Counted from the stretch's first letter, positions 1,482 to 56,945 are shown. The stretch is 57,562 nucleotides of DNA from Candidatus Adlerbacteria bacterium RIFCSPLOWO2_01_FULL_51_16 (GCA_001775485.1 MEWX01000003.1:1-57562); one strand, 5' to 3'. Notes: generated by a model from the letters alone, not told the origin. Program-made: numbers and translations.

Positions 1482-1565
1482 AACCCTTCAGGAGTGCGAA
1501 AATTCCCTGCTGGTAATTTTCTCAAGTTCTCGCGCCGTCGCGCTCGAAAGCCTCCTTCAGGGTTC
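1482..1565 (+). repeat. structured 3'-flank repeat, copy A (26 nt after efp stop)
   Basis: Closing helix AACCCTTCAGGAG/CTCCTTCAGGGTT. AT-rich hairpin GAAAATT-ccCTGCTggt-AATTTTC. GC hairpin CGCG-ccgt-CGCG. Related copies at 1606..1671(-), 49822..49906(-) and 56380..56447(+). Confidence 0.7.
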
Positions 1566-1605
1566 TTTTACTTCTCGTGAGAAGCGGAGCAAAAACAAGT
1601 TTGAC

Positions 1606-1671
1606 GGAACGTTGAGAGGTGCGACGGCAGGGCAACGGGAAAATTTATCAGCAGAAAATTTTCCGCGTTCC
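1606..1671 (-). repeat. structured 3'-flank repeat, copy A2 (26 nt after rpsR stop, sense to rpsR)
   Basis: Closing helix GGAACG/CGTTCC. Hairpin GGAAAATTT-tCTGCTgat-AAATTTTCC. GCCGTCGC box. More diverged than the other copies. Confidence 0.6.
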
Positions 1672-1696
1672 GGCAAACTTCGTTTTTGCGGAGCGT

Positions 1697-23875: not shown

Positions 23876-24850
23876 TTACGACCTAATGGCTCGGCGGGAA
23901 GAGACATACGCGAGGGAAACAAACACCAAACCAATCAGGCCGGTTAATATCTCCGGTACATGCACCACAATGCCGGTAAGCATAGAAAGTCCGAGGCCGA
24001 ATATCGCCCAATGCGCGCCGTGCTCAAGATAGCGCAAAGCGTTCAAGGTTTTCTTGCGTACCAAATACACCGTGATAGAGCGCACGAAATATGCGCCTAT
24101 ACCCAAACCCACAAAAATAATAGGAATGGCGGTTGTGAGTGCGAAAGCTCCTACAACACCGTCGAGCGAAAAGGCGGAATCGAGGATGTTGAGGTAGATA
24201 AAAAGCACTGCACCGCTGGAGACAATGGTGCCGGCTTTCACGTCAAGAGTAGAGGTAATTCCCTGCATAATCACAAAGGTGAGGAGGCCGATTGAGCCCG
24301 CAGACAAAACTGTAGCCTGATTTTCTGCCAAATACGACAGTCCGAGTAGGGTGGCAAGCGCAAGTGCAAGCTCAATTGCCTCAACCCTGCCCCAGCGGAC
24401 CAAGTGGCGTTCAATCCAGGCTATCCAGTGCACATGTTTGCTGACATCAAAGAAATATTTCAGTGCCACCATAAGCAAGAAGACTCCGCCGAAGGCGCTG
24501 ATAGCCGGTGCTACGTTTTCCATCAAACGGCCATATGCTTCCGGGTCATTGAGAGCGAGTTCAGCAGCCGCAAGCGGCGATATCCACGCGGCAAGCCCAA
24601 CAATAATTGCGGGCAAGATAAGACGAGTGCCAAAAACCGCTATCAAGATACCCCAGGTCAAAAAACGCCGCTGCCATGCGGGGCTCATCTGCGCGAGTAC
24701 CTTTGCATTCACAACCGCGTTGTCAAACGAAAGCGTCACTTCAAGTAACGAGAGCAGAGCCACCAATAGAAAGGCGGGCCATCCGCCCCAAAAAAATATT
24801 GCAACAAGTGCCGAAAGTGAGATCAGCGCCGGAGCAATAAAAAGCCTCAT
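23876..24850 (-). CDS. DUF475 / TerC-related integral membrane protein
   Basis: 324 aa polytopic; LEVTLSFDNAVVNAKVL motif typical of DUF475. Confidence 0.65.
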   Translation of the reverse strand: MRLFIAPALISLSALVAIFFWGGWPAFLLVALLSLLEVTLSFDNAVVNAKVLAQMSPAWQRRFLTWGILIAVFGTRLILPAIIVGLAAWISPLAAAELALNDPEAYGRLMENVAPAISAFGGVFLLMVALKYFFDVSKHVHWIAWIERHLVRWGRVEAIELALALATLLGLSYLAENQATVLSAGSIGLLTFVIMQGITSTLDVKAGTIVSSGAVLFIYLNILDSAFSLDGVVGAFALTTAIPIIFVGLGIGAYFVRSITVYLVRKKTLNALRYLEHGAHWAIFGLGLSMLTGIVVHVPEILTGLIGLVFVSLAYVSSRRAIRS

Positions 24851-24856
24851 GTGGAA

Positions 24857-25117
24857 TTATTTTACGGCAAAAATCTCTGCCCCCTCTTTGGTTTTCTGAG
24901 AGAGCTTCATTGCCGCGTCATCGCCTTTTTTTGCGGAGGCGACATCCTTATGATCTATCTGCAACGACCCAACAACTTCCTCAAACTCCTCCTCCCCCCT
25001 TTTTATTTTTATTTTGTCGCCCTTGTTGAGTTTGCCCGAGAGCTTTACCACAGCGACCCCCAGCTTGTCGTACCAGTGGGTCACGATACCGAGCGGTTTT
25101 TCTTTTTTCTCTGCCAT
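24857..25117 (-). CDS. translation elongation factor-like small beta-barrel protein (EF-Tu domain 2-like)
   Basis: 86 aa; PLGIVTHWYDKLGVAVVKLSGKLNKGDKIKIKRGEEEFEEVVGSLQIDHKDV matches the family annotated as translation elongation factor-like protein. Confidence 0.6.
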   Translation of the reverse strand: MAEKKEKPLGIVTHWYDKLGVAVVKLSGKLNKGDKIKIKRGEEEFEEVVGSLQIDHKDVASAKKGDDAAMKLSQKTKEGAEIFAVK

Positions 25118-25461
25118 ATATAAAAGTAGTTAGCTAGTAAATCCTAACCATCTATGGTCAGTATACCATTTGTGCACTTGGAGGGATAGCTTACGAACCA
25201 TCAGATGGGAGGAAATGTTCCCTTATCCCAGCGTTTCTCTTGGGCAGATGAGAAGCCTGCTGGCTATCGTTCAATAAAACTGTATCCCTGCCTCGTATAA
25301 CAGAGTTTAGCAGAATTGTGCCGCATTATGAAGAGGGAGCGCCAGCCGTTCTCTCTTTTTGAATTTGGGTGGTACGTGTTTTCCTTTCGAGTTTTTTATT
25401 CGCGGCGGGGATGCCCTATACCAGTTGGAGTATTTTTATATAAACTTCGTCGCTCGGCATC

Positions 25462-25788
25462 CTATCCAAACACTAACACCTTATCTGATTCCTCAATCAT
25501 TTTTACCAAGTCGCTCATAGTAGTAACTGGGCACACTTTGCTCTCGGACTTTAAGCGGATTTTTAGGCAGGTCTCACACGCGGCAACAAAACCCTTGAGG
25601 TCTTTAAACTCTTGCAGTTTCTTGGAGATGTCAAACTGTTCTGTGTCGTGGATGTCTTCAATCTCAACACCCTCACTCATAAGAGAGATTTGAACCGAAT
25701 GCCCCGTTTTCAATGCGGTAATGCCCAAGCGAAGCGTATTCCAGATATGTTCTGGGTTATTGGATTGTAGGATGATTCCCAATTTCAT
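25462..25788 (-). CDS. DsrE/DsrF-like family protein
   Basis: 108 aa; MKLGIILQSNNPEHIWNTLRLGITAL..., conserved Cys region (AACETC) and DsrE-type length. Confidence 0.6.
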   Translation of the reverse strand: MKLGIILQSNNPEHIWNTLRLGITALKTGHSVQISLMSEGVEIEDIHDTEQFDISKKLQEFKDLKGFVAACETCLKIRLKSESKVCPVTTMSDLVKMIEESDKVLVFG

Positions 25789-25796
25789 AGTCAGGT

Positions 25797-26465
25797 TTAG
25801 GAAATGTCTTTTTTGCGTTCCTCAAACTCTTTCTTGTCAATCTCGCCACGGGCGTAGCGTTCTTTGAGGATGTCGAGTGCTGATTTCGAGCCACTGCCCT
25901 TATTTTGATTTGTTAGCCATTTTATAAGTGCCACAATACCCGCGATTATCAGCACCCACCATAGAATCATAAAAATCCAGCCGAAACTACCGAAAGGCGT
26001 AAATCCAAAGTTCATCATAGAATTGTTTGACTGATTAAAACCGAGGGGAGACGACCACCCTCCCCACATCATCTGCATCATCGGCATCCAGCCAATAGTT
26101 CCTACTGGGAATGTTGCGGAGGTATCGCAACTAGATAGACGTTTGCCCATCACTACGTGAATCTGCTCCTCGCCTTCCTCGCCGTGCACCCGCGTCATCA
26201 TAGCGTTCATTGAGGCGTGGGCATCACCCATCATCTGCCCCATAAAGTATTCGCCCAGCGCCCCAAAATCTTCATCAGACAAATCAGCACAAGTGGTCTG
26301 CTTGGCTTGTAACTTCTCCCAAACGATTTTGCCCTCGGCTTCCTCGCGAGCGGTATGGTCATCCGAATCAATCGCAACATTTCTCATCATTCCCTGTGCG
26401 GAAACAATGTTTGAGCTTAATGCAAATAACATTATAGCGATAAGTGGAATGAGGGACTTTTTCAT
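25797..26465 (-). CDS. secreted/membrane Met- and His-rich protein with C-terminal SHOCT domain
   Basis: Signal peptide, Met-rich stretches (GQMMGDAHASMNAMM, GWMPMMQMMWGGW), one TM, and a C-terminal LDILKERYARGEIDKKEFEERKKDI (SHOCT). Confidence 0.6.
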   Translation of the reverse strand: MKKSLIPLIAIMLFALSSNIVSAQGMMRNVAIDSDDHTAREEAEGKIVWEKLQAKQTTCADLSDEDFGALGEYFMGQMMGDAHASMNAMMTRVHGEEGEEQIHVVMGKRLSSCDTSATFPVGTIGWMPMMQMMWGGWSSPLGFNQSNNSMMNFGFTPFGSFGWIFMILWWVLIIAGIVALIKWLTNQNKGSGSKSALDILKERYARGEIDKKEFEERKKDIS

Positions 26466-26845
26466 ACTTGTATTTTACCAAAATCTGATACTCAATTCAA
26501 TGACATACGTTCTGACTGGTACGTAACAATACCGTACTGATACGAACATACCAGTGGGTAACTATTTAGTGCCATCCCTATACACCCAAACTCGCTAATG
26601 GTACTCCATAAAACAGTGCCTTGTTTACCTTCTGGTTAATCGTTTATGACGTAGCATCCATTGTCCTGAATATGCCCCTACTGCTACGGGGAGGACAAGT
26701 AGCAGGTTTAACTCCTGTATAACAGGATTGACTGGGATTATGGCGGGATAAAGAAAAGGGGGGTGCCCTCGTTTCTCTCGGTTCTTTTTACGTCAAAACC
26801 CAGAGGCTCTTTTCAAACTACACAGGGGCAGATTTGCTTTATTGA

Positions 26846-28495
26846 TTATGAGAATATTTTTTCTACAATCTCCTTCAATCTTGTAGGAATGCTGGCAACG
26901 TCAATGTCCTTAAACGTCTTGAATGCCTTAAATGGTTTGTTGCCACCAGCAGGAATAACTACTCCGCCATTTTCGCAAACCTTTTCAAAATTTGGGTCAA
27001 GAACTTCTATGCTGCCGAGTCCTTCGGATAAATTCACCTCGTCTTCAATTTTCTGACTACTTGCTTGATTGTCCGTATCCTTGTCATAAATAACTACATA
27101 GGGAAACTTAAAAGCGTTTAGAACCTTCGAGAAAAATGGTATTGCATCTTTGCTGCCGCATTCCACGATAGTTATGCCGTAATCATAAAAAAGATATTCT
27201 GGTTTTACTTTCTGGGCAATAAGTGGCAAAACAACTTTTTCAGTATCACCTTCAACCAAGACTACTTTTTTACCAAAAAACATCTCACTGCGTTCTGGGT
27301 CAAACTCATTCAAGAGCTTAAAGTTTTTCCTCTCCTCTTCTACTGCAAAAATATCTTTCTGATATTGAATAATCTTAGTTCCAATCTCAAGGTTGTTCTT
27401 TACTGCGATGCCGATTGATTTGTACTCACCCATATCAACAAAGAAGCTGGAGTGTGTAGTAAAAACTACTTGGTCTGTTTTAGTAATTTCTTTAAGCAAG
27501 GCAAACATCGCCCGTTGCATCTGTGGATGTAAGTAAAGTTCAGGCTCTTCAATCCCAAAAATCAGCGCTTTTGCTTTTTCACCCTGCTCCTTCTTGAGTA
27601 AGTCAGCGTAAGCTCGAAAGATTACAAAAATTACCGACCTCTGCATTCCGTGCCCTTTATTTTCTATTGCAGTAGAAATACCGTCATCCACCATTATCTT
27701 TGTCCCAGATTGAAAGACATCTTTCAAGCTCGGTGGCGTTACATCGAGCTTTATTGTTGTGCCTTTCATATGTGCGGAGAGTTTCTCGCTCAACATTGTC
27801 TCGAACTCTTTTAGTTGGGCGATTCTGCCATCTTGTGCATCGTTTTCTCCCATCAATAATTTCGTAAATTGCTCGTTGACCTTTTTAAGTTCCGCATCTT
27901 GCAAAACACTACTAAGCATAGCGTTGATTATCTGCCCAAATCTGGACTTCTCGGTTATTTTTGCCTCTTCCTTAACATCCTTAACGGCTGGAACGTAGAG
28001 AAAGTCTGGTAAGTATCCATTTGCAACTTGTGCCCAACCAAAAGGTTTGGGCTTCCAGAAATACTTTTTATCGGTAGATGTGAACGGTTCAATTTCTTCT
28101 TTATCTGTAATTTCAACCGCGTCCTTTTTATCTTTTTCGTTTTCAAACTTTTCTTCCAAGATAACTGCAAACAATCGTTGCGTTTCTTCACCTTCAAAGA
28201 AATACTCTTTACGAATTATAACAGTCTCTCCGTCTTCCAGTAGATATTTTCCAAAAGTAGTTTTTGCTTCCGCGTTCAAATCACGAAACCAAACTTGGAT
28301 GATAGTCTTCTCACCACAATCATTAAAAAAATGAGCATCAAGTTTTTTCGTATCACTAAAAAATAAGTCCAGCGCTTTTAAGACATTGGACTTCCCAGCG
28401 TTATTCTCTCCGATGAAAGCCATTAAATCCAAAAAATCAATTCGCTCGGACTTAAATGACTTGAAGTTTTTAATAAATACTCTTGAAATTTTCAT
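26846..28495 (-). CDS. OLD-family nuclease (ABC-type ATPase + C-terminal TOPRIM)
   Basis: 549 aa. N-terminus MKISRVFIKNFKSFKSERIDF..FIGENNAGKSN (Walker A, K35), GHGMQR, Walker B IFGIEEPELYLHP, TTHS. TOPRIM motifs VVLVEGDTEKVV and VVIYDKDTD. ATGA overlap with the upstream gene. Confidence 0.85.
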   Translation of the reverse strand: MKISRVFIKNFKSFKSERIDFLDLMAFIGENNAGKSNVLKALDLFFSDTKKLDAHFFNDCGEKTIIQVWFRDLNAEAKTTFGKYLLEDGETVIIRKEYFFEGEETQRLFAVILEEKFENEKDKKDAVEITDKEEIEPFTSTDKKYFWKPKPFGWAQVANGYLPDFLYVPAVKDVKEEAKITEKSRFGQIINAMLSSVLQDAELKKVNEQFTKLLMGENDAQDGRIAQLKEFETMLSEKLSAHMKGTTIKLDVTPPSLKDVFQSGTKIMVDDGISTAIENKGHGMQRSVIFVIFRAYADLLKKEQGEKAKALIFGIEEPELYLHPQMQRAMFALLKEITKTDQVVFTTHSSFFVDMGEYKSIGIAVKNNLEIGTKIIQYQKDIFAVEEERKNFKLLNEFDPERSEMFFGKKVVLVEGDTEKVVLPLIAQKVKPEYLFYDYGITIVECGSKDAIPFFSKVLNAFKFPYVVIYDKDTDNQASSQKIEDEVNLSEGLGSIEVLDPNFEKVCENGGVVIPAGGNKPFKAFKTFKDIDVASIPTRLKEIVEKIFS

Positions 28496-29373
28496 AACGT
28501 TGATTCATAGGACTGCCTTATCAAATCCAAAACGTATGACACATCGTCTTTGGATTTTAATTTGATTCTTCCTTTGTAGCCCCATTCAAAGGAGCTAATA
28601 TCTTTTATCATCCCTTTCGGGTCAATTTTGTGGTCATAACGGGAATCTCGTACTAAAACGTCTATATAGCTCTTGCCGAACTCAAAGCGCACAAAACTCT
28701 TTGTGGTACGGTAGGTAATACCTACTTTTTGGTCTGCTTTTTCTTCGACGTTCGCCCATTTCTTTATTTCTTCTTGCAACGCATAAAAAATTGCCTTAAC
28801 GTCGTCGTTAACATTACTCAAATGGTAATCAACATTGTAAGCCCCCTCCTCTTTTCTCTTTGTAGTTTCGGCAACAGGCTTTACTGTCTCGGAGCTATAC
28901 ATTGTTTCCAAGAACAAAATATCGGAGCTGTATGGAGTGTACTTTATCAATTCGACACTGTTTTTTACTTGGCGCGCTGCCGAAAGAGTGTAACGGTCAA
29001 AACCTTGGGCAATGAGTATAAGTCGAGGACTGTCCCAAATAACCTTGCTTTCCTTACCGAGTTTATCTGCTACTAATAAATCAAATAGACGCTTATTTTC
29101 CTTGAGCCAATCAATATAGAAAAGTCCTTGGGATAGAATGTTATCCTTTTCTCCCCACTTATATTCGATAATGACTGGTGTGCCCGTCTCATCAATCGCC
29201 AACGTATCAATGCGTCCATCCTTTGTTTTATACTCATTTCCTAAAAAGCGCAGTCCCAGCAAACTTTCAAGATTTTCTGCAAAAAAATCTCGCAAAGCCG
29301 CTTCGTCCTTAAATTGGCGAAGGTCAACTGGAACTTGATGGGCTTTCTTACTTTTGATTTGAAAGAGTGCCAT
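28492..29373 (-). CDS. NucS/DUF91-like PD-(D/E)xK nuclease-fold protein with DUF5655-like C-terminal domain
   Basis: 293 aa. KDGRIDTLAIDETGTPVIIEYKWGE gives D...D...ExK (D56/D61, E70, K72). The C-terminal half (ITYRTTKSFVRFEFGKSYIDVLV...) resembles the domain usually fused to DUF91. Family assignment is from memory only. Confidence 0.55.
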   Translation of the reverse strand: MALFQIKSKKAHQVPVDLRQFKDEAALRDFFAENLESLLGLRFLGNEYKTKDGRIDTLAIDETGTPVIIEYKWGEKDNILSQGLFYIDWLKENKRLFDLLVADKLGKESKVIWDSPRLILIAQGFDRYTLSAARQVKNSVELIKYTPYSSDILFLETMYSSETVKPVAETTKRKEEGAYNVDYHLSNVNDDVKAIFYALQEEIKKWANVEEKADQKVGITYRTTKSFVRFEFGKSYIDVLVRDSRYDHKIDPKGMIKDISSFEWGYKGRIKLKSKDDVSYVLDLIRQSYESTL

Positions 29374-29374
29374 A

Positions 29375-31984
29375 TTAGTTTGCTAAAGATTGACTTATAA
29401 ATTGTTGGTAACTCTCGACTTCCTTGTATTTCACTTCAATGACTTCAAAATGCTTCTTGGCAGAACTGATTTTGGCTTGTTCAGATGGTCGGAGATTACC
29501 AATATCGCCCTTCGTTTCAATCACAAAATAAACGCGCTCCCTTTCTTCATTCCCCTGCAAGTCGCGTTTGGCAGTAACGATTGCCCAGTCGGGATTGTAG
29601 CCGCCAACGGGAGTTTCAACTTTGAACCAGTTAGGCAACTTGATGAACAGTTTAATACGCTCGTCGCTGTCCAGTTCAACCGCGAAATTCTTTTCAACAT
29701 CAGAGTCATACACCACCGCGTCATAGATGGAGTTCTTCACGGGCTGAATTACGTCCTTGTAGCTTGGAATGTGCTCGAATTGGCTTACAGAGTAATTGTC
29801 GGAAACAATTTCATAACGAACTTGGTCAACATAATCCTTGAGCAATCCTTCTTTGATGATGCGTGATACTTCAAAGCAAAATCTTTCAGGGTTATTTAGA
29901 AACGCACTAACGTTATTAGCTTTAGTAAGAATCGCGGCAACAGTTTGACGCGTCAGTTTAGTTTCGTTCTTAATCAGCTCAACACAATCAATGACTCGGC
30001 TCATTTGACTTAGGTCTTCGGCTCTTGTGCCAATAACTCGTGCCGTAACTCCGCCTTTGCCAATATCAACACCAGCACGCTCAACCCGAACTTGCGGCTT
30101 GGCAATTCTTAATTGTTGAATCCTTGCGGCGCAACTCTCAACAAGGCGCTCACTGTTTACCTTCACAAAATACCTCGTCTTCTTCGATATACGCTCCCAG
30201 ATGGCACTAAAGTCGTTGTCCTTATCAAAACCTTTCTTGAGCTTCACTGTATGCTTACGCTTGGCGTTATAAGGCAACGGCGGGGCTTTGTAGATGCCAT
30301 CCTCAACCAACTCGCCTTGGAGTTGCCCAACATACTCTGCGTAGCTTTCATTGGCAACAACGGAGAGCAAATTGACGTTTTTTAGAAAGACGCGCTCGCC
30401 GTCCTGATTGACGCATAGACGCATACCGCGTCCAATCTCTTGCCGCTTGCGAATGGTTGAGATGGTTTCCCGTAGTGTGCAGATATTGAAAATGTTTGGA
30501 TTGTCCCACCCCTCCTTGAGCGCGGAGTGAGAGAAGATAAACTCGGTTGGCTCATCAAAAGAAAGAAGCCGCTCCTTGTCTTTCATTATCAGCTCGTATG
30601 CTTCTTGGTTCTCGGCAATACTTGATTCTCTTTCAAGATATTCTTCGCCGCGCTTGGCGAAATAACCCTTGTGCACGTGGTCAGCATCCAGCGCCTTCAG
30701 TTTGTATTCATCTTTGAGGCGATTGAACTCTTTAACAAATGTTTTGCGAATGTAGCCGTCTGATTGAACATAATTATCAACTTTGTCTATAAAGAACAAA
30801 GAGAGCACTTTAATGTCCATCTCTCGCAACTGCTCCCGCTTTTCAAAATGGCGGCGTATGGTTTGTTCAATCTGCTCACGCATTACTTGTTCGCGGTTAC
30901 CTCCGATTCCTTCGCCCTGCTTAATTTCGATATGGTTACGAAAACGAATCTTGCCAAACTGCCCGATGTCGGGAGCATCTGCATCAAGCGCTTCCACGAT
31001 GTAACCCTCATACACATCGTTATTGGTCTTCTGCGCCAAGTCATCACCTTGCTTGAGCATTAGGCGCTTCTTTTTAGGGTTGCCGCTCGCGTCTTTCGCT
31101 ATTGCTTCAACTTTCGCCTTAATAACTTTGCCTGCCGCAACAGATGATAGGTTAAGGTAGGGACGGGATATGCCCGTGTCATCGTCAGTAACAGAATACA
31201 CCTCAATCTTCTTCACCAGTCCCAGTTGGTAAGCATCAAAGGGTGTGAGCTGATACATCAAGTTGTAGAGATTACGGTGCGTTGCAGAATAGCGAAGGCG
31301 GAATAACGAGTTAAAGTTTTTGAGTCCCTCTTTTGTTGCTTCGCCCTCCATATTCTGCGGCTCATCAAGAATCAGAATTGGATTGGTCTTTTGGATAAAA
31401 CTTATCGGTTGCTCACCCTGCATCTGGTCTCGCGCGGCGTAAAGCACATTCTTATCGCTGTTGAACGCTCCAACTGTCATCACCATTATGTTGATGTTGC
31501 TTGAGTCGGCGAAATGTTTTACCTGTGAGATATTTTTTGATTGGTATTCATAGAAGCGATATGGGACGTTATCGTATAGCTCGGCAAAATGTTCTTTGGT
31601 AATTTGGAGCGCTTTCATAACCCCTTCGCGGATGGCGACAGAAGGAACTAAGATAATAAACTTTTTCCATCCAAAGCGTTTGTTGAGTTCAAAAATGGTG
31701 CGGAGATAAACATAGGTTTTACCCGTGCCCGTTTCCATCTCAATCGAAAAGTCAAAGTCATCAACCACGCCACCATTGGTAATCTTGTTACGCTCCTGCA
31801 CTTTGTGAACGTTATTAAGAATCTCCTCTTGGGAGAGCGTGAGGTAGTTTGGATAGATGCCCAAAAGTCCGCTCCCAGCAATTATTTTACTTGCCGTTGC
31901 TTTCTCTTGTCCTTCAAAAGCATCAACGATAGCGTTGATTGCTTCAATCTGAAAATCTTGGTTGGCATCAAACTTAAACTTCAT
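29375..31984 (-). CDS. res: Type III restriction enzyme, Res subunit (SF2 helicase + PD-ExK nuclease)
   Basis: 869 aa; motif I METGTGKTY, motif II LILDEPQNMEG, C-terminal nuclease NPDWAIV...YFVIETKGD. ATGA overlap with the mod stop. Confidence 0.88.
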   Translation of the reverse strand: MKFKFDANQDFQIEAINAIVDAFEGQEKATASKIIAGSGLLGIYPNYLTLSQEEILNNVHKVQERNKITNGGVVDDFDFSIEMETGTGKTYVYLRTIFELNKRFGWKKFIILVPSVAIREGVMKALQITKEHFAELYDNVPYRFYEYQSKNISQVKHFADSSNINIMVMTVGAFNSDKNVLYAARDQMQGEQPISFIQKTNPILILDEPQNMEGEATKEGLKNFNSLFRLRYSATHRNLYNLMYQLTPFDAYQLGLVKKIEVYSVTDDDTGISRPYLNLSSVAAGKVIKAKVEAIAKDASGNPKKKRLMLKQGDDLAQKTNNDVYEGYIVEALDADAPDIGQFGKIRFRNHIEIKQGEGIGGNREQVMREQIEQTIRRHFEKREQLREMDIKVLSLFFIDKVDNYVQSDGYIRKTFVKEFNRLKDEYKLKALDADHVHKGYFAKRGEEYLERESSIAENQEAYELIMKDKERLLSFDEPTEFIFSHSALKEGWDNPNIFNICTLRETISTIRKRQEIGRGMRLCVNQDGERVFLKNVNLLSVVANESYAEYVGQLQGELVEDGIYKAPPLPYNAKRKHTVKLKKGFDKDNDFSAIWERISKKTRYFVKVNSERLVESCAARIQQLRIAKPQVRVERAGVDIGKGGVTARVIGTRAEDLSQMSRVIDCVELIKNETKLTRQTVAAILTKANNVSAFLNNPERFCFEVSRIIKEGLLKDYVDQVRYEIVSDNYSVSQFEHIPSYKDVIQPVKNSIYDAVVYDSDVEKNFAVELDSDERIKLFIKLPNWFKVETPVGGYNPDWAIVTAKRDLQGNEERERVYFVIETKGDIGNLRPSEQAKISSAKKHFEVIEVKYKEVESYQQFISQSLAN

Positions 31985-33723
31985 ATTGTTTTTAATTCCA
32001 CGTTCAGCCCAAGATTTGCTTTAGCGCTGTCATCGAGGGCACTATCCAAGCAAATAAAGACCTTCCCTTTATAATTCTTGCCCGTTAGTTCGCTTACGGT
32101 CTTATCGTCAATCTTCTTGTCGAGGCATACCAAAAGTCGTTTCTCGCCATCGGAAACAACATAAACATCATTCTTCCCAAGTTTAGTTTCGTTGACTTTA
32201 GAGTTCAGAGAAAGCCCTTCTTTGACAATGTTCTCATAAACCATATCAACGGCTTTGGTATCATCAAACAGTTTAGCTTGCTTGGCTTTTGCGAGATAAC
32301 TTTCAAATGTCTTCTTGTTCTCCTCCTCGGATTTTGTGGGGTCAAACTCAAAAGCATTTTCAGGGTAGTTAGATTCAGCAAGTTTGAATGTCTTGAAAGT
32401 TGCCTCAATCTGTTTGAGGCGGTCTTTGGCAATATCTGCGACGGTATTATGCCCAGATTTATAATCTGGGCTTTTCACATCAACTACCTCTGGCAACTGA
32501 ACTAAAATAAACTTTCTTGAACCCGTGTCAGCGTAATTTTGCTCCAACACTGCTTCCGCCGTTGAACCAGAACCAGCAAAAAAATCGAGCACGAGAGCGT
32601 TTTTATCATTAACAACTTGAAGCATCCTTTGGATAAGTTTAGGATTCTTGCCACCATTTTTTATCCAAGTTGAATCCGATTCAATAACATCCGTCCAGTT
32701 GGTATCAAGATTAGTTTCTTCGCTTGCGGGTAATCTATATTGCGGCTTACTAGTATTCGGAGATAAACGCAAATCGCCAGCATCAATCATTGTCATTGCT
32801 CTTTCCTTCTCATACATCCAATGCCTACCTGTCGGCGGCTTCTGCCCAAATAATTCGTATTCCATTGTTGGTCGCACCCCTGGCGCATCAAATGCGTGCC
32901 ATCGTTCCTCCTTCTTTTGATACTTTTTAGGAGGCACTACTAAAGTAGCGTCGCTTTTTGCGTAGCATAAAATGTAACCTACCCCTTGATTGAGGGCTTT
33001 TACTGTGTCAGTTTCTTGGATATTCTTTTTTACTCTTGAAACAAAAATTGCATTTCTAAAGTTTTCTTCACCAAACACTTCGTCCATTATCATTCGCAAA
33101 TGGTGAGCTTCGTTATCGTCAATGCTTACGAAAATAATGCCGTCATCGCGTAGTAGATTCCACGCCAACTTAAGGCGCGGATACATCATTGAAATCCAAT
33201 CGCTGTGATAACGTCCGCTTGTTTCTCGATTCGTGGTCAAGCTCGCACCGTTCCCGTCTTTCTGTCCTGTTTGCTTGAGGTAATTTGAGAGAGGCGCGGA
33301 GAAATCATCGTGATACACAAAGTCGCCGCCAGTGTTGTATGGAGGGTCAATGTATATCATTTTTACCTGCTCAAAGTATGCCTTCTGAAGAAGTTTGAGG
33401 ACTTCAAGATTGTCGCCTTCAATAAAGAGGTTCTCACTTTCATCGAACTTCACGCTCTCATCTTTGACGGGACGAAGCGTAGCTTTGCTTGGAATCAAGA
33501 CATTCTTGATGGCGTTACTTTTGCCAGCCCAAGAAAAGTTAAACTTCTCGATTCGTTCATCAATCGCACTACCAAGAACGGCTCGGAGTTTGTCCCAGTC
33601 AATCTTATTCTCACTAAATGCTTCGGGGAGGACTTTGTGCAACTCCACTAACTTCTCCTCGGAAAGATTTGAGGAGGTGAGATTTACTTTTTTGTGATTC
33701 TTTTTTGATGTATCCATATCCAT
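31981..33723 (-). CDS. mod: Type III DNA methyltransferase, Mod subunit (beta-class N6A/N4C)
   Basis: 580 aa; IYIDPPYNTGGDF (motif IV) precedes LDFFAGSGSTAEAV (motif I), the beta-class order typical of Type III Mod. Confidence 0.88.
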   Translation of the reverse strand: MDMDTSKKNHKKVNLTSSNLSEEKLVELHKVLPEAFSENKIDWDKLRAVLGSAIDERIEKFNFSWAGKSNAIKNVLIPSKATLRPVKDESVKFDESENLFIEGDNLEVLKLLQKAYFEQVKMIYIDPPYNTGGDFVYHDDFSAPLSNYLKQTGQKDGNGASLTTNRETSGRYHSDWISMMYPRLKLAWNLLRDDGIIFVSIDDNEAHHLRMIMDEVFGEENFRNAIFVSRVKKNIQETDTVKALNQGVGYILCYAKSDATLVVPPKKYQKKEERWHAFDAPGVRPTMEYELFGQKPPTGRHWMYEKERAMTMIDAGDLRLSPNTSKPQYRLPASEETNLDTNWTDVIESDSTWIKNGGKNPKLIQRMLQVVNDKNALVLDFFAGSGSTAEAVLEQNYADTGSRKFILVQLPEVVDVKSPDYKSGHNTVADIAKDRLKQIEATFKTFKLAESNYPENAFEFDPTKSEEENKKTFESYLAKAKQAKLFDDTKAVDMVYENIVKEGLSLNSKVNETKLGKNDVYVVSDGEKRLLVCLDKKIDDKTVSELTGKNYKGKVFICLDSALDDSAKANLGLNVELKTI

Positions 33724-33736
33724 TTCAAATTAGGGC

Positions 33737-33967
33737 TTACTTCTTTTTTCTCCGAAATTTTGCTACCTCGACTTGGAAGTTAGCGTTGTCCCGAAGAAAC
33801 TTCTCGTAGGATTCTTTAGGGATTCGCCAGTAACCAATCTTTATTGCGTGTAGCCGCTCATCTTCAATATAGCGAAGGATGCTTCGTGGATGGACTCTTA
33901 ACTTATCGGCTACTTCACGGAGAGTATAAAAATCTCGTTCTTCTTTTGGTTGTTTGGGTTTGCGCAT
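33737..33967 (-). CDS. excisionase-family/MerR-like HTH DNA-binding protein
   Basis: 76 aa; FYTLREVADKLRVHPRSILRYIEDERLHAIKIGYWRIPKESYEKFL. Lies 13 nt upstream of mod. Confidence 0.7.
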   Translation of the reverse strand: MRKPKQPKEERDFYTLREVADKLRVHPRSILRYIEDERLHAIKIGYWRIPKESYEKFLRDNANFQVEVAKFRRKKK

Positions 33968-34034
33968 ACAAGAACAGTTTACCGCATTTTTTGTAACTGT
34001 GCAAATGTGTACACTTGTGATAAAATGATTTTAT
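33968..34034. promoter_or_regulatory. divergent promoter/operator region of the element
   Basis: Minus strand: -35 TTGCAC (34004-33999), 17-nt spacer, -10 TAAACT (33981-33976), ATG 8 nt later. Plus strand: extended -10 TGATAAAAT (34018-34026), ATG 8 nt later. Perfect palindrome GTGTACAC at 34007-34014 lies between them. Confidence 0.5.
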
Positions 34035-34775
34035 ATGGAAATGGATATGGCAACCACAACACAAGAAAAAGACATCCAAGCTATTGCCGACATCATCCAG
34101 CAGCACTACCTTGCCAGTGGAGATGAGTCAGTTGGCGTACCCGTGAAATACTTTGAGCAAAAGAGCTTTGGGCATCACGACGTCAAGATTGCTTTATCAA
34201 TTCTCACAAAGAGTGGGGCTGTCCAGAATTATCATCGTTGCTGGGGACATAACGATATAGATAAACAAAGTGGCACTGTGTCATTCACGGAAGTTGATAC
34301 AAAAGAGCCCAAAGAGAAGTTTGAGGGGGTTGTTCAAGCATTTGAGGCGTATCACATACTCATTAAGTCGGACATCCTAAAACAGCTTGCGCAGCCCTCA
34401 AAAAAGAGTGCTCGCTCAAGCAAAGCGAAGGAAGATGTTGCTATACAGCTTTTTCTTGATAATGACGGCGATTTATATAAAGAGCCCAAAAAATCATATT
34501 GCTACCCACTACTCCAAAACAAAGAGCCATTAAAGTTGATTCTTTACTTCATCAAAAACCCGAATCGTAGCTATGAAGAATCAACCCAAATGATTGCGCT
34601 ATCGCTGGAAAAAGACCCTCAATACTTGAGAGCCGAAATTGGCAAGATAAATCGCATTGCCTTAAATCGGCTCGGTTTAGGTAAGGAAAAATTGATACAA
34701 GCAAAACAAAACAGTGGCTACCGATTGAATCCAAAGATAAAAATTACTGCTGAAAAAGAGATACTCCTAAGATAA
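34035..34775 (+). CDS. hypothetical protein with C-terminal winged-helix-like segment (putative element regulator)
   Basis: 246 aa. The C-terminus ...IGKINRIALNRLGLGKEKLIQAKQNSGYRLNPKI resembles OmpR/CadC-type wHTH ends. Confidence 0.5.
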   Translation: MEMDMATTTQEKDIQAIADIIQQHYLASGDESVGVPVKYFEQKSFGHHDVKIALSILTKSGAVQNYHRCWGHNDIDKQSGTVSFTEVDTKEPKEKFEGVVQAFEAYHILIKSDILKQLAQPSKKSARSSKAKEDVAIQLFLDNDGDLYKEPKKSYCYPLLQNKEPLKLILYFIKNPNRSYEESTQMIALSLEKDPQYLRAEIGKINRIALNRLGLGKEKLIQAKQNSGYRLNPKIKITAEKEILLR

Positions 34776-34805
34776 CCATAGATACTGTGGACAAGTTCGA
34801 GTAAG

Positions 34806-34830
34806 GCAGCTCAAAACGAGCTGCTTTTTT
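34806..34830 (+). terminator. intrinsic terminator
   Basis: GCAGCTC-aaaac-GAGCTGC followed by T6. Confidence 0.75.
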
Positions 34831-34891
34831 CGTTTCAAAAACTACCTTCGGATTATGTTCGGCTACGGCACGCGACTGTTAAGTTTTCTGT

Positions 34892-35143
34892 ATGAAGTCA
34901 AATACAGAAAGCCAAGTCGCAATTTCTGATTTAGGACTCGCAGCGCTATTGGTAACTCTCCAATTCGAACTGGTTAGTTTGGAGAGAACGAGCGAAAAGC
35001 GAGTTGACTTCGTATTCGCAAACTCGAAAGAGGTCGAACGAGCAATCGCGGATTTTTGGGAAGACAAGAATGTAAACGTCCCGATTCAAACGCTGTTCAA
35101 TAACTTTCGTCTTCTGAAGAATCGCCTTTACGCCTTCAAATAA
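34892..35143 (+). CDS. small hypothetical protein (phage/element-type; possibly DUF5659-like)
   Basis: 83 aa ORF in the element's plus-strand module. Family guess is from memory only. Confidence 0.45.
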   Translation: MKSNTESQVAISDLGLAALLVTLQFELVSLERTSEKRVDFVFANSKEVERAIADFWEDKNVNVPIQTLFNNFRLLKNRLYAFK

Positions 35144-35144
35144 T

Positions 35145-35327
35145 ATGCGCCTCAAGCCAGAACAATTTGAGCGTTTGAGAAAGCCATTCGATAAGTATGG
35201 GGCATTTGAGGGGCGTACGAAGGATGAAGTCGAAGAAATACTCAATGGCGTGATGAATTATTACCTCACACTCGCAAATATAAACCTCCGCTTAAAGCGG
35301 GAAGAAAAAAACAATGGAACAAAATAA
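35145..35327 (+). CDS. small hypothetical protein
   Basis: 60 aa; starts 2 nt after the previous stop and overlaps the PrimPol ORF start. Confidence 0.4.
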   Translation: MRLKPEQFERLRKPFDKYGAFEGRTKDEVEEILNGVMNYYLTLANINLRLKREEKNNGTK

Positions 35328-37374: not shown

Positions 37375-37438
37375 TCAATAAAGCGAATCTGACGCTGTGC
37401 ATAAAGGTCGAAAATTAACAACAATAAACATTAAATCT

Positions 37439-37693
37439 ATGGAAGAAAAAGGAATTGTGTTTAGTATCGTGTTTGATGAGGAGGAAGTTCAGAGTTTCGC
37501 GGAAGCAAACTTTGAGCGAGAACTGACAGAGCTGGAGTTGAACCGAATGAAAATGCACTGGTACGAAGATGGCGCTGCGTATGGGGCAAGAACGGAACTG
37601 CTGGCAAGCGCTATAAAAATGGCGATAAATACAAAGGATTACAATTTCGAGCGAACGGATAGAGATTATTTGGAAAGTGGTGGCGGGAAGTAG
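37439..37693 (+). CDS. small hypothetical protein
   Basis: Track ORF 37397..37693 starts with GTG. The ATG at 37439 (MEEKGIVFSIVFDEEE...) is preferred. Confidence 0.4.
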   Translation: MEEKGIVFSIVFDEEEVQSFAEANFERELTELELNRMKMHWYEDGAAYGARTELLASAIKMAINTKDYNFERTDRDYLESGGGK

Positions 37694-37731
37694 TGCTGTT
37701 TCTTGAGCTGAAACGTAGTGTGGATAGCACC

Positions 37732-37759
37732 TTGACACAAATGTACACCTTGCTATACT
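37732..37759 (+). promoter_or_regulatory. near-consensus sigma-70 promoter
   Basis: TTGACA (37732-37737), 16-nt spacer, TATACT (37754-37759). Confidence 0.6.
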
Positions 37760-37766
37760 GGTAACG

Positions 37767-37878
37767 TAGCCTACATCCGTATATAAGTCGCAGGGTATTT
37801 TTATCCTTCAATCCAGAAAGGGGTTCATCCTCTGTCTGCCATTGAAGGATGTCCTTGCGACATTCGGATGTGGGCTAC
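37767..37878 (+). ncRNA. 112-nt extended hairpin starting at the predicted +1 (candidate sRNA or 5' leader structure)
   Basis: Three stacked helices: 14 bp (37767-37780 / 37865-37878, one G-U), 9 bp (37788-37796 / 37853-37861) and 10 bp perfect (37803-37812 / 37841-37850). The apical loop is 28 nt. Confidence 0.45.
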
Positions 37879-37936
37879 CAGATAGATGTGGTGAGCCCCT
37901 TTTTGGTTTATGGGGATTGCCGCGAGCATATAACTT

Positions 37937-45423: not shown

Positions 45424-45580
45424 CAAGGTCAAAAAAACGAAATGGTTCGCTTTTTTGTACACTTGTGCTGGGCGGAGCAATGTTTCGCTAGCAAGCGAAA
45501 CTGCGAGCCGGGGTCGAGAAAATTTTGAGCGACGGCGAAAAATTATTCGTGACCACAAATGTACACACAAAAGTAAAAAC

Positions 45581-45652
45581 GCTCTCGTAGTTCAATGGAT
45601 AGAATATCTCCCTCCGAAGGAGACGATGCAGGTTCGATTCCTGCCGGGAGCA
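45581..45652 (+). tRNA. tRNA-Arg (CCG)
   Basis: GCTCTCG-TA-GTTC-AATGGATA-GAAT-A-TCTCC-CTCCGAA-GGAGA-CGAT-GCAGG-TTCGATT-CCTGC-CGGGAGC-A. Confidence 0.85.
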
Positions 45653-45730
45653 CTGAGGTTATCCGAAGCAAACCGATTCCTGCCGGGAGCACTGAGGTTA
45701 TCCGAAGCAAATCGATTCCTGCCGGGAGCA
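45653..45730 (+). repeat. 2 x 39-nt tandem repeat, each unit ending in a copy of the tRNA-Arg(CCG) 3' end
   Basis: Units 45653-45691 and 45692-45730 differ at one base (C/T). Each is CTGAGGTTATCCGAAGCAAAYCGATTCCTGCCGGGAGCA, whose last 18 nt equal the tRNA 3' terminus. Confidence 0.9.
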
Positions 45731-45737
45731 CCGAAAA

Positions 45738-49821: not shown

Positions 49822-49906
49822 AAACCTGAGGGAGGCTTCGCAGGCGCGACTGGCGCCGAGACTGAGCAAATTTCCAGCAGGAAATTATGCGTACTCCTGA
49901 AGGTTT
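49822..49906 (-). repeat. structured 3'-flank repeat, copy C (15 nt after polA stop, sense to polA)
   Basis: Minus strand: AAACCTTCAGGAG...AATTTCC-TGCT-GGAAATT...GGCGC-cagtc-GCGCC...CTCCCTCAGGTTT. Collinear with copy A. Confidence 0.7.
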
Positions 49907-56356: not shown

Positions 56357-56945
56357 ATCTCCACTCGGCAGCTTCCCGCGCGGGGTACACAGATTTTCTG
56401 CTAAAAATTTGCTCAATTCTCGCGCCGTCGCGCTCAAAAGCCCCCGCTTAGGGACTGGCTCGTTTCGTGTACTTGCGTTTGATCCAGGGTTCGAGCGCCT
56501 CGGTGTTGCCGTCGTGGAGCGCAAAAACGGAAAAGAAAAGCTGCTTTATTCTGACTGTGTGCGCACTTCTGCGGCATTGCCCTTCCACAAGCGTCTTGAG
56601 GCGCTCGGTACGGCGGCCGAGGTTTGTATTGCTACATACAAACCCGATGCGGTTGCTCTTGAAGACATTTATTTCGCAAAAAACGCAAAGACGGCGATGA
56701 AAATAGCCGAGGTGCGTGGCATGCTTATGTATATTGCGAGCACCCACAAGCTGGCTTTATTTGAATACACTCCCGCGGAGGTGAAAGTCGCTATAACCGG
56801 CTACGGTAAGAGCGACAAGGAGGCTTTAGCCCTTATGATTCCGCGTCTTGTAAGGTTGCCGGAGCGTAAACGTCTCGACGATGAGCTTGATGCAATAGCA
56901 GTTGGGCTCACCTGTCTTGCCTCAATACGAAAGATATCCACATAG
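56331..56945 (+). CDS. ruvC: crossover junction endodeoxyribonuclease RuvC (start codon uncertain)
   Basis: RVLAFDPGFERLGVAVV..., ...LEDIYF..., ...DELDAIAVGL are RuvC motifs. There is no canonical start near the conserved core. Upstream in-frame candidates are ATG 56331/56346 and TTG 56409. Confidence 0.8.
   Translation: MMSIPMPHKSPLGSFPRGVHRFSAKNLLNSRAVALKSPRLGTGSFRVLAFDPGFERLGVAVVERKNGKEKLLYSDCVRTSAALPFHKRLEALGTAAEVCIATYKPDAVALEDIYFAKNAKTAMKIAEVRGMLMYIASTHKLALFEYTPAEVKVAITGYGKSDKEALALMIPRLVRLPERKRLDDELDAIAVGLTCLASIRKIST
56380..56447 (+). repeat. structured 3'-flank repeat, copy B (24 nt after yebC stop)
   Basis: Closing helix GCGGGG/CCCCGC. Hairpin AGATTTT-CTGCTA-AAAATTT. TTCTCGCGCCGTCGCGCTCAAAAGCC matches copy A at 25 of 26 positions. 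Confidence 0.65.

What the first reader, a model, noticed from the sequence alone, without database searches (positions are those of the whole stretch)
1482..1671. Family of three-helix structured repeats placed 15-26 nt after stop codons, with compensatory base changes
Four copies lie in sense orientation just downstream of unrelated genes:
- efp: 1482-1565, plus strand;
- rpsR: 1606-1671, minus strand;
- polA: 49822-49906, minus strand;
- yebC: 56380-56447, plus strand.
A possible degenerate fragment lies at 45516-45544.

The shared architecture is a closing helix P1, an AT-rich hairpin P2 and a GC hairpin P3. The P2 loop always contains CUGCU, or UGCU directly preceded by a stem C in the polA copy. 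A conserved box lies around P3: TTCTCGCGCCGTCGCGCTCRAAAGCC, identical at 25 of 26 positions between the efp and yebC copies.

The helices persist while their sequences change. P1 is AACCC../..GGGTT, AAACC../..GGTTT, GGAACG/CGTTCC or GCGGGG/CCCCGC. P2 is GAAAATT/AATTTTC, AATTTCC/GGAAATT, GGAAAATTT/AAATTTTCC or AGATTTT/AAAATTT. This pattern argues for selection on structure.

T-runs follow only some copies, so these are not simple intrinsic terminators.
Basis: seen in the sequence. Interest (0 to 1): 0.7.

Follow-up and report, generated by a model that had tools for sequence, protein, structure and literature searches.

The report
Foldback DNA repeat family of Parcubacteria
The four "RNA motifs" are copies of a 70-110 nt foldback DNA repeat scattered through the tiny genomes of Parcubacteria (CPR bacteria), in either orientation, between genes, between tRNAs and in frame inside essential genes, so it behaves like selfish mobile DNA rather than a signal at mRNA 3' ends.

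Summary
The window has four strong copies and one degenerate copy of a three-helix element, with no Rfam match. All 14 modelled base pairs show compensatory changes.

The 3'-UTR RNA reading does not hold:
- Between co-directional genes, copies are sense in 21 cases and antisense in 30.
- At least 15 copies lie in frame inside housekeeping genes (RecG, KsgA, UvrD, Fmt, TsaD, RecJ, MiaA, MnmA), in both orientations.
- Copies in tRNA spacers are antisense to the tRNAs 21:5.
- Stem mismatches are strand-asymmetric in the same direction whichever strand is transcribed, and the complementary strand folds better in about 80 of 90 copies.
- Copies within one genome resemble each other more than copies from other genomes.
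- Orthologous sites are occupied, decaying, hairpin-only or empty. Strains with identical EF-P carry entirely different efp-rpsR spacers.

Best reading: a non-autonomous mobile foldback DNA element, closest in behaviour to Rickettsia palindromic elements and REP/IS200-type hairpin elements, probably acting as single-stranded DNA. The mobilising enzyme is unknown. I found no published description in the library searched.

The parts
1482..1565 (+). Copy 1, 25 nt after the efp stop. P1 is AACCCTTCAGGAG/CTCCTTCAGGGTT with a TC x TC internal loop. P2 is GAAAATTCC-CTGCTG-GTAATTTTC. P3 is GCGC-CGTC-GCGC.
   Evidence: -30.2 against -35.9 kcal/mol for the complement. CM 1486-1560, 58.7 bits. The copy is absent from the ortholog L119 and from five contigs that encode the identical EF-P.
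1590..1690 (-). Copy 2, directly after the rpsR stop (1697-1699). The core is 1601-1675. The long P1 pairs about 1590-1612 with 1666-1689.
   Evidence: 53.3 bits. Orthologous copies lie 3' of rpsR in L121 (56.5 bits; P1 arms identical, core about 65% identical) and in L119 (33 bits, P1 decaying). L120 has a plain terminator at this site instead.
49822..49906 (-). Copy 3, 14 nt after the polA stop (49921-49923), in the spacer before the next gene on the same strand.
   Evidence: 67.2 bits, and this copy was not in the model seed. It is closest to L095 from Candidatus Adlerbacteria GW2011_GWA1_54_10.
56378..56451 (+). Copy 4, 23 nt after the yebC-like ORF stop (56354-56356).
   Evidence: 47.2 bits.
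45483..45559 (-). Copy 5, a degenerate variant of the tRNA-spacer subtype. It has GGTCAC...CGACC arms, and the GCCGTCGC loop motif sits on top of the AT-rich stem. It lies between tRNA-Arg(gcg) and tRNA-Arg(ccg), antisense to both.
   Evidence: 21.8 bits, E 0.001. One search gives the tRNAs. The same tRNA-Arg spacer in L019 holds a full copy. A similar compact variant occurs in L087.

Best explanation
What it is: a family of short (median about 93 nt), non-autonomous foldback DNA repeats. It is selfish, mobile or recently mobile DNA of the same general kind as Rickettsia palindromic elements and REP/IS200-type hairpin elements, and it is specific to the Parcubacteria branch of the CPR.

The unit has four features:
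- Two hairpins with conserved loops.
- A closing stem P1 of 5 to more than 30 bp. Its sequence differs from copy to copy.
- A frequent TC x TC internal loop in P1.
- Frequent T-Y-C triplets flanking both ends on the same strand.

Proposed mechanism (inferred, not shown):
1. On that strand the mismatches become G.T wobbles and tandem G.A pairs.
2. The two loops are recognition points for a protein acting in trans, such as an HUH/Y1-type transposase or another structure-specific nuclease or recombinase.
3. New copies land preferentially in or next to existing hairpins: terminators at gene ends, tRNA spacers, and footprints of earlier copies.
4. Inside genes, only insertions that keep the reading frame survive. 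There the element is translated; the palindromic P2 encodes KFSAENF on both strands.

The four window copies sit just after stop codons because that is where such insertions are tolerated, not because they signal anything in the mRNA.
For: Shown by tool results:
1. Multi-copy and lineage-wide. The model then found 24 further copies in 724 kb of those loci. The window holds 5 copies in 57.5 kb.
2. Both orientations occur relative to genes: 21 sense and 30 antisense between co-directional genes, 18 convergent, 10 divergent. The flanking ORFs are separate known genes, such as DnaB>RecR, XerC>ExoIII, SecY>Adk and NusB>Rnc.
3. In-frame copies lie inside RecG, KsgA, UvrD (two sites), Fmt, TsaD, RecJ, MiaA, MnmA and a PrmC-like methyltransferase, in both orientations (Pfam). 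Pairing is kept even when that changes the peptide (KFSAENF becomes KFPAGNF).
4. Orthologous sites are polymorphic.
   - KsgA: occupied in sense (L034), occupied in antisense (L075, L114), a remnant SKFSSN (L071), and hairpin-only (L008 TTGCGTTAGGcaagaCCTAACGCAA; L091).
   - UvrD: site 1 is occupied in three loci and empty in L034. Site 2 holds different subtypes or is empty.
   - efp-rpsR spacer: two copies (window, L127); one copy (L121); one decaying copy 3' of rpsR in a rearranged locus (L119); a plain terminator (L120); a 1-nt spacer. Five contigs that encode the identical EF-P have an unrelated hairpin plus a terminator.
5. Subfamilies are genome-specific. Mean identity is 0.82 within an assembly and 0.70 between assemblies, p = 1e-12.
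6. The strand asymmetry is intrinsic to the element.
   - P1 mismatches on the CTGCT strand: Y.Y 52 against R.R 6, and A.C 34 against G.T 12.
   - The direction is the same whether the copy is sense or antisense to transcription.
   - The complementary strand is more stable in 79 of 90 copies with RNA parameters and 81 of 90 with DNA parameters.
   - TYC flanks 18/52 copies upstream and 16/52 downstream, against a 9.8% background. The GRA control gives 1 and 0.
7. Stems covary while loops are kept.
8. It is not a known RNA family and not terminator-like.
Against: - No transposase or other mobilising gene was found.
- No half-elements flanking a gene were seen.
- No clean filled-versus-empty pair with exact boundaries was obtained. 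The closest strain comparison shows the whole spacer replaced.
- The core is conserved across lineages that NCBI ranks as separate candidate phyla. Several sites, such as DnaB-RecR in four genomes and the tRNA-Arg spacer, are occupied in distant genomes. This fits long-term retention under selection as well as it fits mobility.
- P2 and P3 differ from each other, unlike the two ends of IS200/IS605 elements.
- The TYC flank is present in only about a third of copies at the strict position.
- Gene calls in the loci are my own ORF heuristics.
Confidence: 0.6

Rival explanations
1. A cis-acting RNA element in transcripts, acting as an unconventional terminator, a barrier to 3' exonucleases or a processing site. 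It might function in either orientation through its long stem.
For: - All four window copies lie 14-25 nt after stop codons, sense to the upstream gene.
- In the other loci the elements hug gene ends. The median distance from an upstream same-strand stop to the core is 41 nt, and divergent spacers are the rarest context.
- Copies in tRNA spacers have a consistent orientation, 21:5.
- The P1 of the rpsR copy is identical between genomes whose EF-P is 82% identical.
- T-runs or A-runs are about twice as frequent as background.
Against: - Orientation relative to transcription is mixed.
- Copies occur in frame inside essential genes, where termination or cleavage would be harmful.
- The mismatch asymmetry does not flip with the transcribed strand. 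In copies sense to genes, the transcribed strand carries A.C and Y.Y mismatches rather than G.U.
- The conserved loops read differently on the two strands, so one RNA-binding partner cannot serve both orientations.
- No terminator consensus is present.
- The element is absent from orthologous sites in close relatives.
Confidence: 0.12
2. A host-maintained DNA site, not currently mobile. It would be a structured binding or processing site for a cellular protein (nucleoid organisation, replication or repair, DNA uptake) that was seeded long ago and is kept by selection at each location.
For: - The loops are conserved and the stems covary across very distant lineages.
- Orthologous occupancy is seen in distant genomes: DnaB-RecR in L004, L027, L045 and L053; the tRNA-Arg spacer in the window and L019; RecG in L032 and L049.
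- The strand asymmetry implies a constraint on one DNA strand.
Against: - Subfamilies are genome-specific.
- Some copies are decaying or reduced to remnants (L119, and SKFSSN in L071).
- The efp-rpsR spacer turns over between strains with identical EF-P.
- One site can hold opposite orientations or different subtypes.
- A cellular site needed in hundreds of places, yet dispensable at each individual place, is hard to distinguish from a selfish element.
Confidence: 0.15
3. Relics of one ancient burst of insertion that are no longer mobile. Their arms would be kept complementary by a mutational mechanism, intramolecular template switching or gene conversion between inverted-repeat arms, rather than by selection or new insertions.
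For: - Many P1 stems are long and perfect with copy-specific sequence, and G.T pairs are rare (1089 Watson-Crick against 14 G.T).
- Orthologous copies have different P1 sequences that are still complementary (RecG in L032 against L049).
- Quasipalindrome correction by template switching is an established mutational process (my own knowledge).
Against: - It does not explain the conserved loop sequences, the strand-asymmetric mismatches or the TYC flanks.
- It does not explain genome-specific subfamilies at non-orthologous sites.
- It does not explain different subtypes and orientations at one site.
Confidence: 0.08

Closest known systems
Rickettsia palindromic elements (RPEs)
   Same: Short palindromic repeats present in many copies. 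They are inserted between genes and also in frame inside unrelated housekeeping genes, where they add a conserved peptide. They occur in a lineage with small genomes (RPE properties from PMC10969869, read; this family).
   Different: - Different host lineage.
- No sequence relation was tested.
- RPE families are conserved along their whole length. Here the closing stem differs from copy to copy and only the two hairpin loops and the junction are conserved.
- This element is translated in both orientations, and P2 gives the same heptapeptide on both strands.
- The record titles of the hits span several NCBI candidate phyla, whereas RPEs are confined to one genus.
REP/BIME elements with RAYT transposases, and IS200/IS605-derived hairpin elements (PATEs)
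   Same: Structure rather than sequence of the stem is conserved. There is strand-specific asymmetry and no conserved terminal inverted repeats. A short direct motif lies on the same strand at both ends. Copies prefer gene ends.
   Different: - REPs are extragenic by definition; this family also sits inside genes.
- REPs are single 20-40 nt hairpins; this is a three-way junction.
- The two ends of an IS200/IS605 element carry similar hairpins bound by one TnpA. P2 and P3 here are unlike each other.
- No Y1 transposase was found (weak test).
Classical bacterial MITEs (Correia, ERIC, BOX/RUP/SPRITE)
   Same: Non-autonomous, about 100 nt, fold into stable hairpins, cluster at gene ends, and can sit in transcripts (PMC10969869).
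   Different: - MITEs have sequence-conserved terminal inverted repeats, target-site duplications and a parent IS.
- Here the terminal stem is variable.
- The flanking TYC is a consensus shared by all copies rather than a copy-specific duplication.
- No parent element was seen.
Integron attC sites
   Same: Recognised as folded single-stranded DNA on one strand, with structure conserved and sequence variable. They lie just downstream of ORFs.
   Different: The RYYYAAC/GTTRRRY core sites are absent. The neighbours are housekeeping genes and tRNAs, not cassette arrays. The internal two-hairpin core is highly conserved.
Mitochondrial double-hairpin elements and mobile GC clusters of fungi; repetitive hairpin-forming elements of sponge mitochondria
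   Same: Two-hairpin mobile modules found between genes and in frame within coding regions of compact genomes (my own knowledge for the fungal elements; the sponge elements appeared as a title).
   Different: These are organellar and unrelated in sequence. This is an analogy only; nothing was tested here.

Membership tests
Any Rfam RNA family | Match to a curated covariance model | tested here: not met
   A gathering-threshold scan of the whole window returned only 8 tRNAs. A permissive scan of 1400-1750 on both strands gave two chance snoRNA hits at E of 3.8 and 7.1.
Intrinsic (Rho-independent) terminator | Short G+C-rich hairpin with a 3-8 nt loop, followed directly by a T-run | tested here: not met
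   No terminator-like site at any of the four copies. Across 83 copies, a T-run follows P1 in 13 and an A-run precedes it in 11, against a 7.7% background. The 'loop' would be a 55-nt two-hairpin core.
   21 sense against 30 antisense between co-directional genes. Inside genes, 4 sense against about 12 antisense. Near tRNAs, 5 sense against 21 antisense.
   Copies sense to genes: A.C 10, Y.Y 12, G.T 2. Copies antisense to genes: A.C 13, Y.Y 14, G.T 1. The direction is the same in both groups.
Rickettsia palindromic elements | Palindromic repeat inserted in frame in unrelated protein-coding genes and encoding a conserved peptide | tested here: met
   RecG, KsgA, UvrD, Fmt, TsaD, RecJ, MiaA, MnmA and a methyltransferase carry it. 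The peptides are ..GRSDGDGQRKFSAENFRGE....KFSAENFLCPSPS.. and ..ANFQQKIMR...
Rickettsia palindromic elements | Sequence homology to one of the RPE families; Rickettsia host | not tested
   No RPE sequences were at hand. The hosts are Parcubacteria, so this is filed as 'works like', not as a member.
REP / BIME | Strictly extragenic | tested here: not met
   At least 15 intragenic in-frame copies.
REP / BIME | Associated RAYT (Y1 transposase) gene in the genome | not testable with these tools
   Only 8-20 kb pieces of each genome could be read. A tblastn with an IS608 TnpA sequence recalled from memory found nothing.
MITE | Sequence-conserved terminal inverted repeats shared with a parent IS | tested here: not met
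   P1 sequence differs between copies, even within one genome. There are no isolated half-elements around a gene.
MITE | Copy-specific target-site duplication | tested here: inconclusive
   T-Y-C is found on both sides. It is a consensus common to copies rather than a copy-specific duplicate, and it occupies the strict position in about a third of copies.
IS200/IS605-type single-strand elements | Strand-specific structure; a direct short motif at both ends on one strand; no TIR or TSD | tested here: inconclusive
   The strand asymmetry is strong and the flank motif is enriched. However, the two hairpins are dissimilar and no TnpA was found. The GC-skew association is weak: 88 against 57, p = 0.012.
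Integron attC | R''/R' core sites and location in cassette arrays next to intI | tested here: not met
   The core sites are absent from the sequences. The neighbours are efp, rpsR, polA, dnaB, tRNAs and similar genes.

The most novel reading that the evidence does not exclude
A previously undescribed class of strand-specific, single-strand-DNA mobile module. It would be a two-hairpin core with protein-read loops that homes into the loops of existing hairpins: terminators, tRNA spacers and its own footprints, including footprints inside essential genes. It would have been kept active across the whole Parcubacteria radiation by a conserved but unidentified enzyme. As a by-product it would have repeatedly remodelled surface loops of core replication, repair and translation proteins in these minimal genomes.
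Probability: 0.3. Interest if true: 0.8.

Novelty: new variant of a known kind. Interest (0 to 1): 0.62.

Why it matters
- CPR/Patescibacteria genomes are about 1 Mb and are usually described as streamlined and poor in mobile DNA. This family reaches about one copy per 10-30 kb in the DNA sampled (5 in the 57.5-kb window; 24 further copies in 724 kb of loci). It reaches into the coding sequence of RecG, UvrD, KsgA, TsaD, Fmt and others, which shows a substantial selfish-DNA load.
- It is a source of lineage-specific protein insertions that annotation pipelines and structure predictors will otherwise treat as unexplained loops.
- It creates spurious small ORFs. The four proteins returned by the peptide search are 52-87 aa ORFs carrying the element-encoded peptide.
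- It is a ready false positive for screens that look for structured RNAs by covariation, because the covariation is real but not RNA-level.
- The strand-specific signature and conserved loops give a concrete handle for finding the enzyme that moves it. The element could also serve as a strain marker in metagenomes.

Tried and rejected
- RNAalifold on a plain MAFFT alignment of 77 copies recovered only P3, because variable junction lengths and a bulge misalign P1 and P2. I therefore specified the structure by hand for the model and did the P1 statistics in Python.
- A search of the protein database with a composite element-encoded peptide returned only four short spurious ORFs.
- A full HMMER scan with one of those ORFs gave only 10 weak hits. 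Host-protein diversity therefore had to be read from DNA.
- My first, strict ungapped mismatch count suggested no strand asymmetry (G.U 14 against A.C 24). A walk that tolerates internal loops overturned this.
- Split-gene or intron-like reading: ORFs tightly flanking elements are different, complete genes, so I rejected it.
- tRNA-like, SRP, 6S, 5S and ribozyme readings: I rejected them by the absence of any Rfam hit and by inspecting the sequence.
- attC reading: rejected because the core sites are absent and the context is wrong.
- A viral-contig scan found nothing.
- GC skew against orientation gave only a weak signal.
- The tblastn for an IS608-type TnpA used a sequence recalled from memory and is uninformative.
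- The idea that the 'GATAAATT' subtype is specific to the rpsR locus was wrong. Those loci have no S18 gene.

Full report
**1. The observation**

The sequences at 1482-1565 (+), 1606-1671 (-), 49822-49906 (-) and 56380-56447 (+) align with one another. They share ATTYYCTGCTRRWAAWTT, and 13-14 nt further on GCC(N)GTCGC. Each folds into a closing stem, an AT-rich hairpin and a GC-rich hairpin, more stably than shuffled sequence (z -2.2 to -4.3).

The 26-nt box is 25/26 identical between the efp and yebC copies. The stop codons lie 25, 25, 14 and 23 nt away. A consensus scan calls no terminator at any copy. Rfam has no match at gathering or permissive thresholds, on either strand.

A covariance model built mostly from copies in other genomes scores the four at 47-67 bits. 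The best-scoring copy, 3' of polA, was not in the seed. The model also finds a fifth, variant copy at 45483-45559 (-) between two tRNA-Arg genes. The stem of the rpsR copy really spans about 1590-1690.

**2. The family outside the window**

- Nearly all titles are Parcubacteria-group MAGs: Nomura-, Kaiser-, Adler-, Taylor- and Uhrbacteria, Paceibacterota and Minisyncoccia. NCBI ranks several of these as separate candidate phyla.
- One hit, titled Selenomonadales, is a chance match.
- Four real copies sit in automated assemblies titled Gammaproteobacteria or Pseudomonadales. I did not verify those labels.
- The same pattern finds nothing in 2.9 million viral contigs.
- The model found 24 additional copies in the first 100 loci.

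Of the model's 124 hits, 21 do not fit my search pattern, and in most of them (the weakest few are fragments or opposite-strand hits) the P2 stem is freely replaced while the loop stays mostly TGCT. Examples are ATTCGCC/GGCGAAT, AAAACTT/AAGTTTT and GGGGTTCTTTTC/GAAAAGACCCC. A GC-rich variant, TGGGCT-TGCT-AGCCCA plus GGCC-CGTC-GGCC, turned up inside a UvrD gene.

On the model-guided alignment:
- 94.4% of cells pair, against 44-61% with slid partners.
- All 14 pairs have changes on both sides.
- 160 cells are compensatory, against 34 in shuffles.

The alignment was fitted to the structure, which inflates these figures somewhat. The raw sequences show the same thing. Structural conservation is therefore real.

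**3. Why it is not a sense-strand 3' RNA signal**

ORFs were called by my own heuristic.
- The gene upstream of an element is on the same strand in 42 cases and on the opposite strand in 44.
- Between co-directional genes, 21 copies are sense and 30 antisense.
- The tightly flanking ORFs are distinct, complete genes (DnaB>RecR, XerC>ExoIII, SecY>Adk, NusB>RNase III, L7/L12>PurH), so no gene is split.

About one copy in ten lies inside a long ORF, in frame.
- The hosts are RecG, KsgA/RsmA, UvrD/PcrA (two sites), Fmt, TsaD, RecJ, MiaA, MnmA and a PrmC-like methyltransferase. Pfam confirms them, and the Pfam domains span the insert.
- Both orientations occur.
- The palindromic P2 hairpin AAATTTTC(T/A)GC(T/A)GAAAATTT encodes KFSAENF on either strand.
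- When the stem changes in a compensatory way the peptide changes (KFPAGNF). Pairing, not the peptide, is what is kept.

A distinct subtype (GGTCAC...GCGACC arms, extended P3, often followed by another hairpin) lives in tRNA-gene spacers. It is antisense to the tRNAs in 21 of 26 cases.

**4. The strand test**

There is a recurrent TC x TC internal loop, which is also present in window copies 1 and 3. On the complementary strand these become G.T wobbles and tandem G.A pairs.

The complementary strand is more stable in 79 of 90 copies with RNA parameters and 81 of 90 with DNA parameters. The same holds in all four window copies.

The asymmetry has the same direction whether the copy is sense or antisense to the surrounding genes. 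It is therefore a property of the element and not of the transcript. This points to a process that reads one DNA strand in folded form.

On the same strand, T-Y-C triplets flank the stem on both sides far above background: 18/52 and 16/52 against 9.8%, with the reverse-complement control at 1 and 0. This arrangement resembles the same-strand cleavage motifs of single-strand transposons. It is present in only a third of copies at the strict position.

**5. Evidence for gain, decay and loss**

Copies from one assembly are more alike (0.82) than copies from different assemblies (0.70; p = 1e-12).

KsgA:
- The same loop is occupied in sense orientation in L034 and in antisense orientation in L075 and L114.
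- L071 has the remnant SKFSSN.
- L008 has only a 10-bp perfect hairpin. L091 has a near-perfect 8-bp hairpin.

UvrD:
- Site 1 is occupied in three orthologs and empty in a fourth.
- Site 2 holds an AT-rich copy, a GC-rich copy in the other orientation, an unrelated hairpin, or nothing.

The efp-rpsR spacer, which is the finding's own site:

| Source | Relation to the window | Spacer content |
|---|---|---|
| Window, L127 | identical EF-P | 240 nt, two copies |
| L121 | EF-P 82% | 111 nt, one copy. P1 arms are identical to window copy 2, but the core is only about 65% identical |
| L119 | EF-P 90% | Locus rearranged: a two-gene block follows efp, and no copy lies 3' of efp. Only a decaying copy remains 3' of rpsR |
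| L120 | EF-P 82% | plain bidirectional terminator AAAAAGCCGC...GCGGCTTTTTT |
| Contig of P0021 | EF-P 81% | 1-nt spacer |
| L122, L123, L125, L126, L129 | identical EF-P | 128 nt, an unrelated foldback plus a plain terminator |

Hairpin-only alleles at otherwise occupied sites (L008, L091, L083, L120) fit either of two readings. Either the two-hairpin core is a guest that lands in the loops of existing hairpins, or it can be excised leaving a hairpin. The conserved P1 with a diverged core at the rpsR site also fits both. I could not decide between them.

**6. What it most likely is**

The element is a non-autonomous, foldback mobile DNA element read as single-stranded DNA, with the two loops as protein recognition points.

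Shown:
- family membership
- structural covariation
- mixed orientation
- in-frame intragenic copies
- site polymorphism
- genome-specific subfamilies
- transcription-independent strand asymmetry

Inferred:
- mobility as the cause of the polymorphism
- a single-strand intermediate
- hairpin-loop targeting
- the existence of a partner protein acting in trans

No partner gene was found. The only test I could run, a tblastn with an IS608 TnpA sequence recalled from memory against about 0.9 Mb, is close to uninformative. The association of orientation with local GC skew is weak (88:57).

The main alternatives are a host-maintained DNA site, an RNA element, and dead relics kept palindromic by template switching. 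They are scored in the rivals section.

**7. Comparison with known systems and novelty**

- In behaviour it is closest to Rickettsia palindromic elements (in-frame insertion into unrelated housekeeping genes; PMC10969869).
- In logic it is closest to REP/RAYT and IS200/IS605-type hairpin elements and to integron attC sites (structure conserved, one strand read).
- It fails defining features of REP (extragenic only), of classical MITEs (conserved terminal repeats, parent IS), of attC (core sites, cassette context), of intrinsic terminators and of every Rfam family.
- Full-text searches found no description. The terms tried were Patescibacteria, CPR or Parcubacteria together with palindromic element, MITE or Rickettsia palindromic, and the motif and peptide strings themselves. 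That library misses most subscription journals.
- I file it as a new variant of a known kind of element.

**8. Verdict**

Its interpretation changes from 'structured 3' RNA motif' to 'lineage-wide foldback selfish DNA that also invades coding sequence'. Interest is moderate to high. It would surprise people who regard CPR genomes as free of mobile repeats, and it gives a testable lead to an unknown mobilisation system. The general phenomenon has precedents.

Noticed in passing
window 45635-45751: Directly after tRNA-Arg(ccg), the last 19 nt of the tRNA (CGATTCCTGCCGGGAGCAC) plus 20 nt are repeated head to tail three times with a 39-nt period. This looks like scars of integration at the tRNA 3' end, or replication slippage.
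   Followed up: no
L122 1931-2058 (also L123, L125, L126, L129): Strains whose EF-P is identical to the window's carry an entirely different efp-rpsR spacer. It holds another foldback element (GAGACGGAGTCG..CCCCAAGGGG..CGACTCCGTCTC) followed by a plain bidirectional terminator AAAACTCGGTttttACCGAGTTTT. So a second, unrelated hairpin repeat family occupies this same hot spot.
   Followed up: partly
L071 UvrD site 2; KsgA C-terminal region of L034, L008 and L071: Further in-frame insertions occur that are not this family. One is a long hairpin in L071 UvrD (..AGTAFGHGLAGGGTRRTDDLN..). Others are Pro/Gly-rich inserts in KsgA (..PPSQGGGRSEVQNK....PSPLKGEGVAST..). These proteins seem riddled with several kinds of inserted repeats.
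   Followed up: no
L004 DnaB ORF (877 aa) and L093 UvrD ORF (1090 aa): Both host genes also carry large intein-like insertions. DnaB has ..SGCLTGDTLV...VHNS.. and UvrD has ..DQCLISGT...THNC... These are visible in the translations.
   Followed up: no
L009 4264-4947: Three tRNA-spacer-type copies lie about 300 nt apart, interleaved with tRNA-Ala and tRNA-Ile genes, all antisense to the tRNAs.
   Followed up: no
L078, L020, L061 (tRNA-spacer subtype): The 3' arm of P1 can pair either with the 5' arm or with a third copy of the same sequence just downstream (X - core - X' - loop - X). This gives two mutually exclusive hairpins.
   Followed up: no
window 24000-40000: G+C drops from about 0.50 to 0.42-0.45. 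GC skew swings from -0.10 to +0.12 at 36-40 kb. This could be an island or a change of gene strand.
   Followed up: no
P0001-P0004 (public protein database): The four proteins returned by the element-peptide search are 52-87 aa ORFs that carry ..LERTLGR(S/R)(D)G..QRKFSAENF(R/C)GESEN... They look like spurious gene calls over copies of the element, but I did not fetch their genomic contexts.
   Followed up: partly
L081, L101, L112, L116: Bona fide copies lie in contigs whose record titles say Gammaproteobacteria or Pseudomonadales (automated TPA assemblies, contigs up to 759 kb). Either the labels are wrong or the family reaches beyond Parcubacteria.
   Followed up: no
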